5,866 nucleotides of DNA. It comes from a virus (lineage: Duplodnaviria; Heunggongvirae; Uroviricota; Caudoviricetes). The notes beneath the pieces are model-generated. The model had not been told where the DNA came from and did no database searches. It saw nothing but the letters and a program-made list of their open reading frames with translations. The translations under genes were made by a program, and so were the position numbers. Positions 1,303 through 5,791 of the stretch are shown here, one piece after another. Each line of letters starts with the position of its first letter. Position 1 is the first letter of the stretch. The DNA lies in the IMG/VR virus record IMGVR_UViG_2660237951_000003, positions 1 through 5,866 of that record. One strand, written 5' to 3'.

Positions 1303-1746
1303 ATGAGTACTAATGGATGGTATTACCTGCATCAAAATGGTGATCTTATTTATAAGCCATCACCAGATGCAATTATTGATATTCGTGATTCTGATTTAGC
1401 GGTTTGCTCATGGCCATTAGATGTTAGCAGCCGTAAAACTGCATGGGACATTCTGGTTGAGTCCATGGCTCTTGGTGCCAACAAAGAGCGCGTTAATGAG
1501 CTGGCTAGCAAATGGAATTGCAATGATGATGACGCTGATAAATATGCAGAGGTCGTTGGCGTGACAATCGAGTTAGATGGAAACGTTTGGTGTGCACACG
1601 CTCATAATTTTGTTGATTTACAGGAATCTCCTGCTGGATTCGGCAATACCAAGCTTGAGGCGATGGCTTCTCTTGCTGAGCAACTTGGTTTATCAGGCGG
1701 CCACATGTGGAGAAGTTCATTTTCTGATTTGGTTGAGGCCGCATAG
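1303..1746 (+). CDS. Hypothetical acidic protein (147 aa)
   Basis: ATG 1303 preceded by GAGGTGA (1293-1299). By my count about 23 Asp+Glu against 10 Lys+Arg, including an NCNDDDADKY patch. The stop lies in the loop of an intrinsic terminator. Confidence 0.65.
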   Translation: MSTNGWYYLHQNGDLIYKPSPDAIIDIRDSDLAVCSWPLDVSSRKTAWDILVESMALGANKERVNELASKWNCNDDDADKYAEVVGVTIELDGNVWCAHAHNFVDLQESPAGFGNTKLEAMASLAEQLGLSGGHMWRSSFSDLVEAA

Positions 1747-2395: not shown

Positions 2396-3103
2396 ATGGA
2401 TTTGAATAAATTCGATGAGCCATTCAGCCCTGAAGATATCGAATGGCGAATACAGCAAAGCGGTAAAACACGCGATGGCAAAGTGTGGGCTATGGTGCTG
2501 GCTTATGTCACGAACCGGGCAATCATGAAACGCCTGGACGATGTTTGCGGCAAAGCAGGATGGCGCAATGAATACCGCGATATTCCCAACAACGGCGGCG
2601 TTGAATGCGGCATATCAATAAAGATTGATTCCGAATGGGTAACCAAATGGGATGCTGCTGAAAACACGCAGGTAGAAGCCGTCAAAGGTGGTCGTTCCGG
2701 TGCAATGAAGCGCGCTGCCGTTCAGTGGGGAATCGGTCGGTATCTGTATAACCTTGAGGAAGGTTTCGCACAAACATCTCTCGATAAAAAGCAGGGGTGG
2801 TACAGGGCAAAACTGAAGGATGGAACAGGATTTTACTGGCTCCCTCCATCGCTTCCGGGGTGGGCAATCCCAGCATCAGATAACAAACCATCACCAGAAA
2901 ATACCAACCAGAAATCTCCATCGGTTGACTGCGAACAAATCCTGAAAGACTTCAGCGATTATGCATCAACAGAAACTGACAAGAAAAAACTCATCGAGCG
3001 TTATCAGCGTGACTGGCAATTAATGGCTGGCAACGAGGAGGCGCAGGCTAAATGCGTTCAGGTAATGAACATCAGAGTTAACGAACTAAAACAGGCGGCA
3101 TAA
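2396..3103 (+). CDS. Rad52-like (Rad52/22 / Sak family) single-strand annealing protein with a distinct C-terminal domain
   Basis: ATG 2396 with GAGGTGA (2386-2392). The core motif EAVKGGRSGAMKRAAVQWGIGRYLYN matches the Rad52-family signature (EAV...KRA...G.G..LY), with GKAGWRNEY upstream. A Pro/Ser-rich linker (PPSLPGWAIPASDNKPSPENTNQKSPS) precedes a charged C-terminal domain of about 70 aa. The stop abuts the SSB start (TAAATG). Confidence 0.7.
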   Translation: MDLNKFDEPFSPEDIEWRIQQSGKTRDGKVWAMVLAYVTNRAIMKRLDDVCGKAGWRNEYRDIPNNGGVECGISIKIDSEWVTKWDAAENTQVEAVKGGRSGAMKRAAVQWGIGRYLYNLEEGFAQTSLDKKQGWYRAKLKDGTGFYWLPPSLPGWAIPASDNKPSPENTNQKSPSVDCEQILKDFSDYASTETDKKKLIERYQRDWQLMAGNEEAQAKCVQVMNIRVNELKQAA

Positions 3104-3610
3104 ATGGCAAGCAGAGGCGTAAATAAGGTGATTATCCTTGGTCGGGTAGGACAAGACCCGGAAGTTCGATACTCACCATCAGGAACAGCGTTCGCTAACC
3201 TGACAATAGCCACGTCAGAACAATGGCGAGATAAAAATACTGGCGAGCAAAAGGAATTGACTGAATGGCATCGTGTTGCTGTATCCGGGAAACTGGCTGA
3301 GGTCGTGGGGCAGTATGTGAAAAAAGGTGATCAGATTTATTTCGAGGGAATGCTGAGAACCAGAAAGTGGAAAGACCAGTCAGGGCAAGACCGTTACACA
3401 ACCGAGGTTCATGTCGGAATTAATGGTGTGATGCAAATGCTTGGCGGCATTGGCGACAGCAAACAACAAGCAGCCAGCAGGCAATCACAGAAGCCACAGC
3501 AGCAATCATCACCAGCACAACACAACGAACCTCCGATGGATTTTGACGACGATATACCCTTTGCACCAGTAACTCTCCCCTTCCCTCGTCACGCTATTCA
3601 CGCAATTTAA
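3104..3610 (+). CDS. ssb: Single-stranded DNA-binding protein (SSB), phage-encoded, with a 15-residue extension after the DDDIPF motif
   Basis: N-terminal OB fold is close to E. coli SSB ([18 protein letters not shown]...EWHRV...GQDRYTTEV). Short Gln-rich linker, then [11 protein letters not shown] followed by [15 protein letters not shown] before the TAA at 3608-3610. Confidence 0.9.
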
Positions 3611-3623
3611 TCAGGAGAAAATC

Positions 3624-3920
3624 ATGCCAGCGCCTCAGTATGGTGCGGATGACCCGCGCCGCTGTTCCGGCAATTCCGTATCGGAGGTGCTGGATAAATT
3701 CAGGAAAAACTACGACCAGATAATGTCTCTACCGCAGGAAACGAAAGATGAAAAGGAATTTCGCCATTGTATATGGCTTGCAGAGAAAGAAGAACGCGAG
3801 CGAATTTACCAGACATCAATCCGACCATTCCGCAAAGCCACATATACCCACTTCCCTGAATATATCGACCAGCGCCTGCGTAATTACCGCTCACGCTATG
3901 GCGCTATCAGTAATGACTGA
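3624..3920 (+). CDS. Hypothetical protein (98 aa)
   Basis: ATG 3624 with AGGAG (3613-3617) at 6-nt spacing. Charged and helical in its C-terminal half. No recognised family. Confidence 0.6.
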
Positions 3921-4098: not shown

Positions 4099-4349
4099 GT
4101 AATTCAGCACGACTACAGCTTGGTTTTTCACCGCTATCAAAAACTATCATGCTGGCAAAAATGCGCGATGTTGAAGGTGGACGTATGCGCGTTGGCAATG
4201 ATCCAGGTCGTGATGTTACCAATGAGGCTGCTCAATTGGTGTGGCGACTGGTCATGGCTGAAGGTGGTGAGATCGCGTGGGAGCTGGATGATGGTTCTCG
4301 CATGGTGTTGAAGGCAGAAAAGCAGGAGGCAACCAGTGAGCAAGATTGA
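4095..4349 (+). CDS. Hypothetical protein (85 aa, GTG start)
   Basis: GTG 4095 with AAGGAGG (4082-4088) at 6-nt spacing. The ORF-track start at 4074 is also GTG but has no Shine-Dalgarno sequence. No recognised family. Confidence 0.5.
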
Positions 4350-4713
4350 CTATCAGGCACTGCGTGAAATCGCAGCGGCAGCAGTTGGCGCACATGAGCG
4401 CCTTAGTGTTATGCCGCCTGATGACATTTTCGATATCTCACTGGCAGAAGGAACTCAGCTTGATGCAGATATCACTGCCTTGAACGCGCTGAACTCCGCA
4501 GCCAGTCCAGCTACCGTGCTGGCGCTACTGGATGAACTGGAAGCCGCAGAGAAGCGAATCGCTGAACTGGAAGCGAAGCTCGATAGCGCAGATAAATTGC
4601 AAGATAGCGCATTTCGTCATGGTCTTCAGCATGGCTTCAGTTTAGGTCAAACGGATAATCAGGCTGGATTTGAAGAGTGCTTATCTGCCTATGGCACCGG
4701 TAAAGGAGAGTGA
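4336..4713 (+). CDS. Ea22-like (ead/Ea22-family) coiled-coil protein (125 aa, GTG start)
   Basis: GTG 4336 with AGGAGG (4324-4329). N-terminal [13 protein letters not shown] and the heptad-like LALLDELEAAEKRIAELEAKL segment resemble prophage Ea22-like proteins as I remember them. It lies downstream of the recombination genes, as ea22 does in lambda. Confidence 0.45.
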   Translation: MSKIDYQALREIAAAAVGAHERLSVMPPDDIFDISLAEGTQLDADITALNALNSAASPATVLALLDELEAAEKRIAELEAKLDSADKLQDSAFRHGLQHGFSLGQTDNQAGFEECLSAYGTGKGE

Positions 4714-4715
4714 AT

Positions 4716-4988
4716 GTGAAAAATTATCTCAGCAATTTAGCCAGCATGCTTCAGGGGATTGCAGGTGTCATTTCAGACGGCGAGCGGGTGCAGAAAGAGT
4801 GCCCTGCGCACTTAAAGTCAGCACTACTCGAGGCTTCTCACGCGCTAGATGGTCAATCGGTCAGGGTCAATTATCCGCCTAATGGAAAGCCTGAAATTGT
4901 TAATGCCCGCGGACACCATCGACCGCTTACCTTCCGGGAACGAGTGGCAATCCGCTTACTTGGTGGCAGGACGGAGATTCGCCCATGA
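4716..4988 (+). CDS. Hypothetical protein (about 90 aa; start GTG 4716, alternative GTG 4710)
   Basis: AAAGGAGAG (4701-4709) precedes GTG 4716 at good spacing. The stop overlaps the next ATG (ATGA at 4985-4988). Confidence 0.5.
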   Translation: MKNYLSNLASMLQGIAGVISDGERVQKECPAHLKSALLEASHALDGQSVRVNYPPNGKPEIVNARGHHRPLTFRERVAIRLLGGRTEIRP

Positions 4989-5791
4989 GCACTATTACCA
5001 AAGAACTGGCAAAGCTGTTCAGAAAAATTACGAATTCTGAAATTGATGCGGAGGGAAACGCTCATGTTGTTTTATCTCCTGCTGATAGCCTCCTGATTAA
5101 TAATGCGCGTATCGCGCTGGCATCGCTCGAAGCGGAGCCTGTGGCGTGGGCGCACAGATTAATCAACAAGCGTAACGGAGTCGTTCACCCTTGGGTTTAC
5201 GGTAGCGCAGAGGCGTGTCCAAGCGAGGGGGATATCTTCAATATTGAGGTAATGCCGCTCTACACCGTCCCTCCAGCGCCGGTATCTGTGCCCGCTGCGA
5301 TGGAAATGGATGATGACTTTGACAGCGCGTTTGAACACGGAAAAGCTGTCGGCTGGAACGCCTATCGCGCCGCCATGCTTCAGGCCGATGGTACCCTCAC
5401 CAATGAAGGTACCATGCAGTTGTCCGGTAATTCCGAACAAATCGAACCCGTAAGTAATCGTGATGAGTTGCCGTTGGACTATCTGCAAGGTCACAAAGAC
5501 GGCCTTGAATGGGCGGCGCAACTGGCAGAGGCCAATCATCCGCAAACAGGTGACTGGTTATACGACGACCCAATCGATCTTGCCAGGGCGATTCGCAAAG
5601 GTCCGGATATGCCTACTGTTCAGGCTGGCAACTCTCCGGTAACTCCGGATGGTTGGGTTATGGTGCCGAAGGAGCCAACTCAGGCCATGATTAAAGCGTG
5701 GCTATCAGAGATTGCTAACTTTCGCGGTCATGCTGCTGGTTACAGGGCTGCTCTTGAGGCAGCACCGCAGCAGGAGGTTAACCGTGGCTAA
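4985..5791 (+). CDS. Hypothetical prophage protein (268 aa), possibly a modular Ea22-region protein
   Basis: ATG 4985 coupled to the upstream gene. Contains an acidic patch (AAMEMDDDFDSAFEHG) and a C-terminal segment DGWVMVPKEPTQAMIKAWLSEIANFRGHAAGYRAALEAA. No confident family assignment. Confidence 0.6.
   Translation: MSTITKELAKLFRKITNSEIDAEGNAHVVLSPADSLLINNARIALASLEAEPVAWAHRLINKRNGVVHPWVYGSAEACPSEGDIFNIEVMPLYTVPPAPVSVPAAMEMDDDFDSAFEHGKAVGWNAYRAAMLQADGTLTNEGTMQLSGNSEQIEPVSNRDELPLDYLQGHKDGLEWAAQLAEANHPQTGDWLYDDPIDLARAIRKGPDMPTVQAGNSPVTPDGWVMVPKEPTQAMIKAWLSEIANFRGHAAGYRAALEAAPQQEVNRG

What the first reader, a model, noticed from the sequence alone, without database searches (positions are those of the whole stretch)
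3104..3610. SSB whose conserved DDDIPF tip is buried under a 15-residue C-terminal extension
Bacterial and phage SSBs normally end exactly at ...DDDIPF, and the free carboxylate of the terminal Phe is what partner proteins (exonuclease I, RecQ, PriA, the polymerase chi subunit, and others) recognise. Here the frame continues in-frame through [15 protein letters not shown], which contains a second LPF, before the stop. Either this is a natural variant with altered partner binding, perhaps letting the phage SSB coat ssDNA for its own Rad52-like recombinase without recruiting host factors, or it is a stop-codon mutation or sequencing error.
Basis: partly seen in the sequence, partly recalled or inferred. 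Interest (0 to 1): 0.55.

Follow-up and report, generated by a model that had tools for sequence, protein, structure and literature searches.

The report
Phage SSB with conserved capped tip
This prophage single-stranded-DNA-binding protein carries 15 extra residues after the normally terminal DDDIPF tip; the extension is a conserved, apparently undescribed feature of many phage and plasmid SSBs, not an error, and probably changes which proteins the SSB can recruit.

Summary
ORF 3104-3610 is a canonical SSB through ...[11 protein letters not shown] (F153, 3560-3562), then reads on through [15 protein letters not shown] (3563-3607).

It is not an artefact. The same junction occurs in phages HK75, mEp235, mEpX2, epsilon34 and ECP1, and in 297 of 5426 complete E. 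coli genomes.

It is a conserved module. 111 of the 120 closest protein clusters carry a 15-residue tail, and diverged versions occur in Proteus, Providencia and Vibrio phages, virulent Vequintavirinae, and IncN and IncC plasmids. Tail conservation resembles the OB fold, not the linker. Identical peptides are encoded with 7-9 synonymous changes.

In Sf6- and Huey-type phages an HNH-like endonuclease gene sits between the IPF codon and the tail. There the ssb gene ends canonically and the nuclease ORF reads into the tail. The nuclease family otherwise lacks the tail, so the tail belongs to ssb.

Function is inferred only. One extra glycine on E. coli SSB abolishes chi and primase binding, so the cap should block canonical tip docking. 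The conserved tail is probably a new docking peptide or a degron. The tail is not tied to Erf. I found no description of it in the searchable literature.

The parts
3104..3610 (+). ssb gene, 168 codons plus TAA
   Evidence: ORF list. Pfam PF00436 E 1.6e-36. PHROG 44. 99.6% identical to HK75 gp31.
3104..3445 (+). OB-fold ssDNA-binding core (residues 1-114)
   Evidence: AF2 model pLDDT about 75-89 with OB strands E8-E114. Aligns to E. coli SSB 1-115.
3446..3526 (+). Gln/Pro/Ser-rich disordered linker (residues 115-141)
   Evidence: pLDDT about 30. Column entropy 1.55 bits, the least conserved part of the protein.
3527..3562 (+). Canonical acidic SSB tip [12 protein letters not shown] (residues 142-153), here internal
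   Evidence: Sequence. Identical to the E. coli SSB C-terminus, and canonical models end here. Entropy 0.22 bits.
3563..3607 (+). 15-codon extension [15 protein letters not shown] (residues 154-168), the conserved cap
   Evidence: Sequence. A 15-residue tail is present in 111 of the 120 nearest clusters. Entropy 0.47 bits. pN/pS about 0.24, with 0 nonsynonymous versus 7 synonymous changes against L143. Diverged versions occur in phages and plasmids.
3566..3610 (+). Segment that in Sf6- and Huey-type phages forms the last 14 codons plus stop of the HNH-like endonuclease ORF
   Evidence: Huey L001:3401-3445 and Sf6 gp26 C-terminus ...[22 protein letters not shown]. About 97 ssb-fused versus 32 nuclease-fused copies in IMG/VR. 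297 versus 107 E. coli genomes.
3563..3565 (+). Codon gca (A154): the position of the ssb stop codon, and so the insertion point of the nuclease cassette, in relatives
   Evidence: Window ccctttGCAcca versus Huey ccatttTAAtca...gaggaaCCA. One nuclease allele keeps ...PDEAPVTL.
2396..3103 (+). Erf/Rad52-like single-strand annealing protein gene, abutting ssb
   Evidence: Pfam PF04098 E 4.8e-26. Annotated Erf-like in HK75, Sf6 and Huey.
3613..3617 (+). AGGAG ribosome-binding site of abc2, 2 nt after the ssb stop
   Evidence: Read from the sequence. Inference from spacing to the ATG at 3624.
3624..3920 (+). abc2 anti-RecBCD gene
   Evidence: Pfam PF11043 E 9.3e-60.

Best explanation
The window carries the HK75-type recombination module (erf-ssb-abc2) of a lambdoid prophage. 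Its SSB belongs to a large, previously unremarked class of SSBs encoded by mobile elements. In this class the canonical acidic tip (D-F-D-D-D-I-P-F) is followed by a conserved roughly 15-residue disordered peptide, with consensus [AS]-P-[VI]-[TG]-L-[PQ]-[FY]-[PG]-[RK]-[HN]-x-[IVL]-[HY]-x-[ILMF]-COOH. Shown here: the extension is real, ancient, kept at a nearly constant length, and under purifying selection at the protein level. It also predates, and is independent of, the HNH-like nuclease gene that splits it from ssb in Sf6- and Huey-type phages. Inferred: the Phe no longer carries the free alpha-carboxylate that host partner pockets (chi, DnaG, ExoI, RecQ, PriA and others) require. The capped tip therefore cannot dock in the canonical way, and this SSB coats ssDNA without plugging into the host SSB interactome in the usual manner. 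Because the tail itself is conserved, it most likely acts as a second short linear motif. That motif would be either a docking peptide for a conserved factor, probably host-encoded, or a C-terminal stability or degradation signal. Where the nuclease cassette is inserted, ssb regains a canonical free tip and the nuclease inherits the tail.
For: Real and widespread. 111 of the 120 nearest protein clusters from Klebsiella, Citrobacter, Enterobacter, Salmonella, Kluyvera and E. coli carry a 15-residue tail. The tail also occurs in 14 species-representative genomes, including Proteus, Providencia, Moellerella and Buttiauxella. It is found in 115 phage records and 103 plasmid records. These include IncN pTR4, an IncC plasmid, Vibrio phages, Vequintavirinae (409-413 aa carriers with no Pfam domain) and a Phapecoctavirus. 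Selection: tail entropy is 0.47 bits against 1.55 for the adjacent linker. pN/pS is about 0.24, and identical peptides are encoded with 7-9 synonymous differences. Disordered linear motif: AF2 pLDDT is about 30 with no docking on the OB fold. Masking: SSB+Gly abolishes chi and DnaG binding and slows growth (PMC3045619, PMC3632105). Tail belongs to ssb and not to the nuclease: 77 nuclease homologues end shortly after ...KPIYP(E/D). Only the E. coli/Shigella subset next to ssb reads into the tail, and its tail variants match local SSB tail variants. The closest nuclease relatives also sit after ssb but use their own stop codon and have no tail.
Against: No binding, stability or genetic experiment exists for any capped SSB. 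The Genome Research 2025 survey states that these SSB-1 proteins are unstudied. Viable phages (Sf6, Huey, ES18) carry an uncapped SSB of the same family, so the cap is not essential. The acidic tip stays as conserved as in canonical SSBs although it is internal. This suggests either that it is still used, so masking may be incomplete or reversible, or that it serves an intramolecular role. The pN/pS estimate uses sequences partly found with a pattern that fixed several residues, which biases it downward. No partner was identified, and no phage gene consistently co-occurs with the tail.
Confidence: 0.6

Rival explanations
1. The tail is a neutral relic. An HNH-like endonuclease gene once lay between ssb and abc2, and a deletion removed it together with the ssb stop codon. 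This fused ssb in frame to the last 14 nuclease codons, and the extension has no function of its own.
For: In Huey and Sf6 the identical 45 nt form the 3' end of the nuclease ORF. Deletion hybrids (SSB N-terminus fused to nuclease C-terminus, P0131 and P0134) and a decayed nuclease remnant (phiKp_30) exist. Within E. coli phages the tail DNA is almost invariant.
Against: The nuclease family natively ends at ...KPIYP(E/D)xx without the tail. The tail is far more widespread than the nuclease: it occurs in Morganellaceae, Vibrio phages, IncN and IncC plasmids and virulent myoviruses, where no such nuclease is adjacent. It shows length constancy, low entropy and an excess of synonymous change.
Confidence: 0.04
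2. The extension is a sequencing or assembly error, or a private stop-codon mutation in this one genome.
For: Close relatives (Huey, Sf6, ES18) do stop exactly at codon 154.
Against: The junction is identical in HK75, mEp235, mEpX2, epsilon34, g341c, ECP1 and CP-1639, in 297 complete E. coli genomes and in about 97 IMG/VR contigs.
Confidence: 0.01
3. The tail is mainly a C-terminal degradation tag. Its exposed, largely non-polar end with nearby basic residues (...R-H-A-I-H-A-I-COOH) would be recognised by an AAA+ protease such as ClpXP, FtsH or Lon. This would keep a potentially dominant-negative foreign SSB short-lived, and likewise the nuclease when it inherits the tail.
For: The tail is disordered and terminal. 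The last residues are always [HY]-x-[ILMF] or similar. Two unrelated proteins, SSB and the nuclease, carry it. The resemblance to the MuA-type ClpX signal (...RRKKAI) and to the rule that non-polar C-termini destabilise proteins is from my own knowledge and was not tested here.
Against: A degron usually needs only the last 3-6 residues, yet the N-terminal half A-P-[VI]-[GT]-L-[PQ]-[FY] is the most conserved part. No experimental stability data exist.
Confidence: 0.2
4. The tail is a pro-peptide. A protease removes it after F153, unmasking a canonical DDDIPF tip at a chosen time or place. This would explain why both tip and tail are conserved.
For: The internal tip is as conserved as in canonical SSBs (entropy 0.22 bits). 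The F|A-P junction is nearly invariant. In IncN plasmids the capped ssb lies next to an SprT-family metalloprotease gene.
Against: No protease gene is consistently linked in phages. No processing has been reported. This is pure inference.
Confidence: 0.1

Closest known systems
Escherichia coli SSB (PDB 1eqq/4mz9) and canonical bacterial, phage and plasmid SSBs (PF00436, TIGR00621)
   Same: The OB-fold core aligns over residues 1-115. There is a disordered linker, and the tip [11 protein letters not shown] is identical.
   Different: Canonical SSBs end at the Phe. This one continues for 15 conserved residues, so the Phe carboxylate is in a peptide bond.
Engineered E. coli SSB+Gly (Naue et al. 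2011 and 2013; PMC3045619, PMC3632105)
   Same: The C-terminal Phe is no longer terminal. This is the only experimental precedent for a capped tip. It lost detectable chi and DnaG binding and supported only slow growth.
   Different: SSB+Gly is an artificial one-residue cap on the host protein. Here the cap is a natural, conserved 15-residue peptide on a mobile-element SSB. Its own sequence is under selection.
Sf6 gp27 (SSB) plus gp26 (endonuclease), and the equivalent phage Huey genes
   Same: Same erf-ssb-(nuclease)-abc2 module. Huey ssb is 98% identical in DNA, and the same 45-nt tail precedes abc2.
   Different: There ssb stops at IPF, and a 155-159 aa HNH-like nuclease ORF (PHROG 2340) is inserted and reads into the tail. 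The GenBank note on Sf6 gp26 ('14 contiguous amino acids identical to ... E. coli SSB') is explained by this shared tail.
HK620 SSB and its cognate Sak4 (Hutinet et al. 2018, PMC5928155)
   Same: A Rec-module phage ssDNA-binding protein whose C-terminal residues mediate a specific partner interaction.
   Different: HK620 SSB is not a bacterial-type SSB. It ends in a free NDYPPF and has no extension. The tail studied here is not tied to one recombinase family.
Beta-clamp-binding motifs QLxLF and QLxLxL (as summarised in PMC4564189)
   Same: The tail core x-[VI]-[TG]-L-[PQ]-[FY] has hydrophobic residues at motif positions 2, 4 and 6. It lies in a disordered terminus, like many clamp-binding motifs.
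   Different: The conserved Gln at position 1 is absent (Pro or Cys instead). The conserved second half of the tail is not explained, and no binding evidence exists.

Membership tests
Bacterial-type SSB (PF00436 / TIGR00621) | N-terminal OB-fold SSB domain | tested here: met
   Pfam E 1.6e-36. TIGR00621 scores 166.9 bits against a cut-off of 53.95. AF2 gives an OB fold. Alignment to 1eqq has E 6.6e-58.
Bacterial-type SSB (PF00436 / TIGR00621) | Disordered linker followed by the acidic-hydrophobic motif D-D-D-I-P-F | tested here: met
   Residues 115-141 have low pLDDT. [11 protein letters not shown] at residues 143-153 is identical to E. coli.
Bacterial-type SSB (PF00436 / TIGR00621) | The I-P-F motif is the extreme C-terminus, giving a free Phe alpha-carboxylate | tested here: not met
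   15 further codons precede the stop. All canonical models end at F153.
Bacterial-type SSB (PF00436 / TIGR00621) | Homotetramer that binds ssDNA and recruits chi, ExoI, RecQ, PriA and others through the tip | not testable with these tools
   Needs biochemistry. SSB+Gly data suggest loss of tip-mediated recruitment.
Capped-tip mobile-element SSB class (defined here) | DDIPF followed by about 15 residues matching [AS]P[VI][TG]L[PQ][FY][PG][RK][HN]x[IVL][HY]x[ILMF]-COOH | tested here: met
   The window tail [15 protein letters not shown] fits every position. The class is documented.
Free-standing HNH-like homing endonuclease cassette (Sf6 gp26 / PHROG 2340) | Nuclease ORF with the H-H-C-D-Y...C-x-x-C-H-x-E-W-H core between ssb and abc2 | tested here: not met
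   The window has only 13 nt between the ssb stop and the abc2 ATG and no nuclease ORF. Only the shared 45-nt tail is present.
Free-standing HNH-like homing endonuclease cassette (Sf6 gp26 / PHROG 2340) | Window allele is the cleavable, nuclease-less 'empty site' | not testable with these tools
   Presence/absence polymorphism in otherwise 98% identical genes is consistent with homing. Cleavage specificity is unknown.
Beta-clamp-binding motif (QLxLF / QLxLxL) | Gln at position 1 | tested here: not met
   Position 1 is Pro (Cys in mEp554) in all tails seen.
Beta-clamp-binding motif (QLxLF / QLxLxL) | Hydrophobic residues at positions 2, 4 and 5 or 6, in a disordered segment | tested here: met
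   [VI] at position 2, invariant L at 4 and [FY] at 6. The segment is disordered. Consensus taken from PMC4564189.
Beta-clamp-binding motif (QLxLF / QLxLxL) | Physical binding to the DnaN cleft | not testable with these tools
C-terminal AAA+ protease degron (ssrA-like or MuA-like) | Exposed non-polar C-terminal residues, with basic residues upstream for the MuA type | tested here: inconclusive
   The tail ends -H-A-I, -Y-V-I, -H-C-I, -Y-A-L or -H-C-M, with R/K and H upstream. There is no LAA. The motif definitions come from my own knowledge.

The most novel reading that the evidence does not exclude
The 15-residue cap is a second, dedicated SSB tip used by mobile elements of Enterobacterales and Vibrionales. 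It switches the SSB off for the host's canonical tip-binding enzymes (chi, primase, ExoI, RecQ, PriA). At the same time it docks the SSB, and in Sf6-type phages the adjacent nuclease, onto a different conserved host hub. One candidate hub is the beta sliding clamp, through the x-[VI]-x-L-x-[FY] core. That would define a new class of SSB C-terminal interaction code shared by temperate phages, virulent myoviruses and conjugative plasmids.
Probability: 0.3. Interest if true: 0.75.

Novelty: new variant of a known kind. Interest (0 to 1): 0.6.

Why it matters
The accepted view of bacterial SSBs is that the free C-terminal Phe is the universal handle for more than a dozen genome-maintenance enzymes. 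Adding a single glycine cripples it. Here a large natural class of phage and plasmid SSBs keeps that handle perfectly conserved but buries it under an equally conserved 15-residue peptide. This makes a concrete question testable: how do mobile elements insulate or re-route their own ssDNA intermediates (recombination, conjugative entry, replication) from the host SSB interactome? There are practical consequences too. These SSBs are annotated as ordinary ssb. Recombineering and SSB-tail matching tools assume a terminal tip. The nuclease gene that splits the module is left unannotated in RefSeq E. coli genomes. The natural polymorphism also offers ready-made isogenic comparisons: a capped SSB, or an uncapped SSB plus a nuclease carrying the tail.

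Tried and rejected
1. Erf-specific private handle: rejected. The tail occurs next to P22-Erf-like, short ERF, RecT plus exonuclease, Sak4-like ATPase and RdgC/HD genes, and on plasmids.

2. Tail as a relic of the nuclease gene: rejected after inspecting the C-termini of 77 nuclease homologues and the loci of the closest tail-less ones.

3. Intramolecular docking of the tail on the OB fold: the AF2 monomer with a 108-sequence alignment gives pLDDT of about 30 for residues 115-168, so there is no support. A tetramer or complex could not be modelled.

4. Nucleotide-level element (RNA structure, or coupling to abc2): not supported. The peptide is conserved through many synonymous changes, and the downstream gene differs (abc2, DnaQ-like exonuclease or others).

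5. Search of 1.84 billion cluster representatives with the last 35 residues: only 14 hits, mostly fragments, uninformative.

The 44-residue version returned only short partial proteins, so the range of carrier domains had to be taken from tblastn hits instead.

7. PDB sequence search with tip-plus-tail peptides: only the canonical tip matched, and no solved complex contains the tail.

8. Literature: searching the motif strings found nothing. Papers on HK620 SSB, lambdoid Rec modules, plasmid SSB transfer and Enc34 SSB do not mention the extension.

Full report
**1. The observation**

The window encodes, on the + strand, an N-like antiterminator (630-1013), an Erf/Rad52-like annealing protein (2396-3103), the SSB in question (3104-3610) and Abc2 anti-RecBCD (3624-3920). 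This is the left-operon recombination module of a lambdoid phage. It is the 'HK75 type' (anti-RecBCD + SSB + annealing protein, no nuclease) in the classification of PMC12315714.

Pfam SSB covers residues 6-104. TIGR00621 and two NCBIfam equivalogs, and the alignment to E. coli SSB (1eqq/4mz9), all terminate at F153. The last 15 residues are therefore a true addition to a complete canonical SSB.

**2. Not an artefact**

The gene is 99-100% identical in phages HK75, mEp235 and mEpX2 and in many E. coli chromosomes. It is 89% identical in Salmonella phages epsilon34 and g341c, always with the same end. A 100-nt probe across the IPF/tail junction is covered at 80% or more in 297 of 5426 complete E. 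coli genomes.

**3. The tail is shared with an endonuclease ORF in sibling phages**

Phage Huey has an ssb 98% identical to the window's, but it ends ...MNFDDEIPF-TAA. Fifteen nucleotides later a 155-codon ORF starts, and its last 14 codons plus stop are the window's 3566-3610. Sf6 has the same layout (gp27 SSB ...DSDIPF*, gp26 ...[22 protein letters not shown]). This explains the old GenBank remark that gp26 shares 14 contiguous residues with an 'E. coli SSB'.

The inserted protein matches PHROG 2340 'endonuclease' and has an H-H-C-D-Y...C-x-x-C-H-x-E-W-H core, but no Pfam hit. I call it HNH-like, following PMC12315714.

Of about 129 exact copies of the 45-nt tail found (IMG/VR plus loci already held), about 97 are fused to ssb and about 32 end the nuclease ORF. 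In E. coli genomes the split is 297 to 107. Both forms occur upstream of either abc2 or a DnaQ-like exonuclease gene.

**4. Which came first**

If the tail were native to the nuclease, the window's extension would be a deletion scar. It is not native.

- Among 77 homologues of Sf6 gp26, the family ends a few residues after ...W-H-K-x-N-x-P-I-Y-P-(E/D), with assorted short tails. Only the E. coli/Shigella members adjacent to ssb read on into P-[VI]-T-L-P-F-P-R-H-A-I-[HY]-A-[IL].
- Their tail variants (…HAIYAI, …[13 protein letters not shown]) are the same variants seen on SSBs.
- The closest tail-less relatives (83-86% identical) also sit directly after ssb in Erf-SSB-nuclease modules, but use their own stop. 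Their SSBs end DFDD(Q/S)DIPF*, the same variant tip that accompanies the Sf6-type nuclease.

The mobile unit is therefore [last ssb codons + stop + nuclease]. In E. coli phages it replaced the tip codons of a capped ssb and left the tail to be read by the nuclease. Homing is a reasonable inference from this presence/absence polymorphism, but it was not tested. Decay products exist: SSB-nuclease hybrid ORFs (P0131, P0134) and a roughly 200-bp remnant in Klebsiella phage phiKp_30.

**5. The extension is a conserved family feature**

A whole-protein search returned 120 nearest clusters. Of these, 111 carry a 15-residue tail, with about 30 sequence variants. Examples are [45 protein letters not shown] and SPVGLQYGKHRVYAL.

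In a 108-sequence alignment of tail-bearing proteins (selected for having the tail), every tail is 15 residues. Mean column entropy is 0.47 bits for the tail, against 0.32 for the OB fold, 0.22 for the acidic tip and 1.55 for the linker just upstream. P155 and L158 are invariant.

A degenerate DNA pattern found the junction in 14 species-representative genomes. These include Proteus mirabilis, P. cibi, Providencia stuartii, Moellerella, Buttiauxella, Kluyvera, Lelliottia and a Symbiopectobacterium plasmid. The Morganellaceae form is APIGLPYPRHAIYVI.

tblastn with the 27-residue tip-plus-tail hit 115 phage and 103 plasmid records. Inspected examples:

- IncN pTR4 SSB: ...[23 protein letters not shown]
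- An IncC Providencia plasmid: ...APIGLPYPRHAIYVI
- Vibrio phage V039C: ...APVGLQYGRNLLHVI
- Vibrio phage Valp1: ...APIGLQYPAIVHCM (14 residues)
- mEp554: ...SCVGLQYGKHRIYAL
- Phapecoctavirus, 308-aa protein: ...APIGLQYGRNFLHCF
- Vequintavirinae, 409-413-aa proteins: PVP-SE1 gp39 ...APIGLQYGRNFIHCI and ABPH49 ...APIGLQYARHAIHAI

The carriers include E. coli-like SSBs, strongly diverged PF00436 SSBs, and PHROG 4477 proteins with no Pfam domain whose family profile ends at IPF.

At the DNA level, 13 distinct tails give pS 0.57 and pN 0.14. The window peptide is encoded identically in L143 with 7 synonymous changes, and in L139 with 9 synonymous changes and 1 conservative change. Some of these sequences were found with a pattern that fixed several residues, so the ratio is biased downward. 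The synonymous-only pairs and the pattern-free protein sample are not affected by that bias.

**6. What it probably does**

AF2 with the deep alignment models the OB fold confidently and leaves residues 115-168 disordered (pLDDT about 30). The tail therefore behaves as a terminal short linear motif rather than a folded element, at least in a monomer.

Experimental precedent is clear on one point. E. coli SSB extended by a single glycine loses measurable binding to chi and to DnaG, and supports only slow growth. This is because the Phe carboxylate and the closing of the pocket are lost (PMC3045619, PMC3632105). By inference, a 15-residue cap prevents canonical docking of the tip.

Because the tail is itself conserved, simple masking is not the whole story. 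I consider a new docking peptide most likely. The partner is probably host-encoded, because the neighbouring recombinase varies (P22-Erf-like, short ERF, RecT plus exonuclease, Sak4-like, RdgC/HD) and the module also sits on conjugative plasmids and virulent phages (and later).

Candidate readings:

- A clamp-binding-like core x-[VI]-x-L-x-[FY] (compare QLxLxL, PMC4564189), which lacks the canonical Gln.
- A non-polar, basic C-terminal degron.
- A removable pro-peptide, which would explain why the internal tip remains so conserved.

None could be tested here. Viable phages with the uncapped allele (Sf6, Huey, ES18) show that the cap is not essential.

**7. Comparison and novelty**

Domain-wise this is a member of the bacterial SSB family, but it fails one defining feature: a terminal IPF. 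The closest functional analogue is the artificial SSB+Gly mutant.

I found no paper describing the extension. The motif strings are absent from the searchable library. The most relevant surveys treat these proteins as ordinary, unstudied SSB-1. I therefore rate it a new variant of a known kind. It is already visible in public annotations but unremarked. The class itself is what is interesting.

Noticed in passing
L005:2067-2546 (E. coli HZDC01); hits H84-H86: The intact 159-codon HNH-like endonuclease ORF between ssb and the next gene is left unannotated ('none') by PGAP in RefSeq E. coli genomes. About 107 complete genomes carry it.
   Followed up: partly
P0131 (139 aa) and P0134 (178 aa), E. 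coli: Proteins annotated as SSB whose N-terminus is an SSB OB fold and whose C-terminal half is the nuclease C-terminus including the tail. They appear to be in-frame deletion hybrids of the ssb-nuclease pair.
   Followed up: no
L006:2351-2554 (Klebsiella phage phiKp_30): About 200 bp of decayed nuclease gene, with start and end retained and the middle deleted or frameshifted. It lies between a canonical-tip ssb and a DnaQ-like exonuclease gene, with the tail sequence now non-coding or out of frame.
   Followed up: partly
L004:2396-2560 (E. coli EC931): A rearranged prophage in which the last 59 nt of the capped ssb (from codon I151) abut a truncated lambda-family holin pseudogene. This is a deletion junction inside ssb. 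An IS5 lies 700 bp downstream.
   Followed up: no
L143 (CACSKA010000001.1, labelled Chryseobacterium sp. 18061): A 799-kb contig of a 'Chryseobacterium' assembly carries an Enterobacterales-type Erf-SSB(capped)-DnaQ-Abc2 prophage module. Its tail peptide is identical to the window's but has 7 synonymous differences. Mislabelling or contamination is possible.
   Followed up: no
L150:2005-3353 (IncN plasmid pTR4): The capped ssb of IncN plasmids lies tail-to-tail with an SprT-family zinc metalloprotease gene, in the anti-restriction/establishment region. A protease next to a capped SSB may be worth testing for tail processing.
   Followed up: no
L152:1355-2584 (Salmonella phage PVP-SE1 gp39); L156:340-1581; L157:658-1584: Large proteins (308-413 aa) of virulent Vequintavirinae and Phapecoctavirus have no Pfam domain (tested for gp39; PHROG 4477, function unknown) but end in [11 protein letters not shown] plus the 15-residue cap. 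This suggests they are the ssDNA-binding hub proteins of these phages.
   Followed up: partly
window 3101-3106 and 3608-3626: Tight gene packing. The erf stop TAA is directly followed by the ssb ATG. The abc2 AGGAG lies 2 nt after the ssb stop, with the ATG 13 nt after it. The module is probably translated as one unit.
   Followed up: no
window 1303-1746, 4710-4988 and 4985-5791: Three sizeable + strand ORFs (147, 92 and 268 aa) have no Pfam hit. 4336-4713 is Ead/Ea22-like and 630-1013 is an N-type antiterminator. These are typical lambdoid early-left accessory genes of unknown function.
   Followed up: partly
L153:2117-3086 (phage mEp554): The annotated 'endonuclease VII' CDS starts 62 nt inside the 3' end of the capped ssb, in another frame. 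Either the annotated start is wrong or there is a genuine overlap with the tail-coding region.
   Followed up: no
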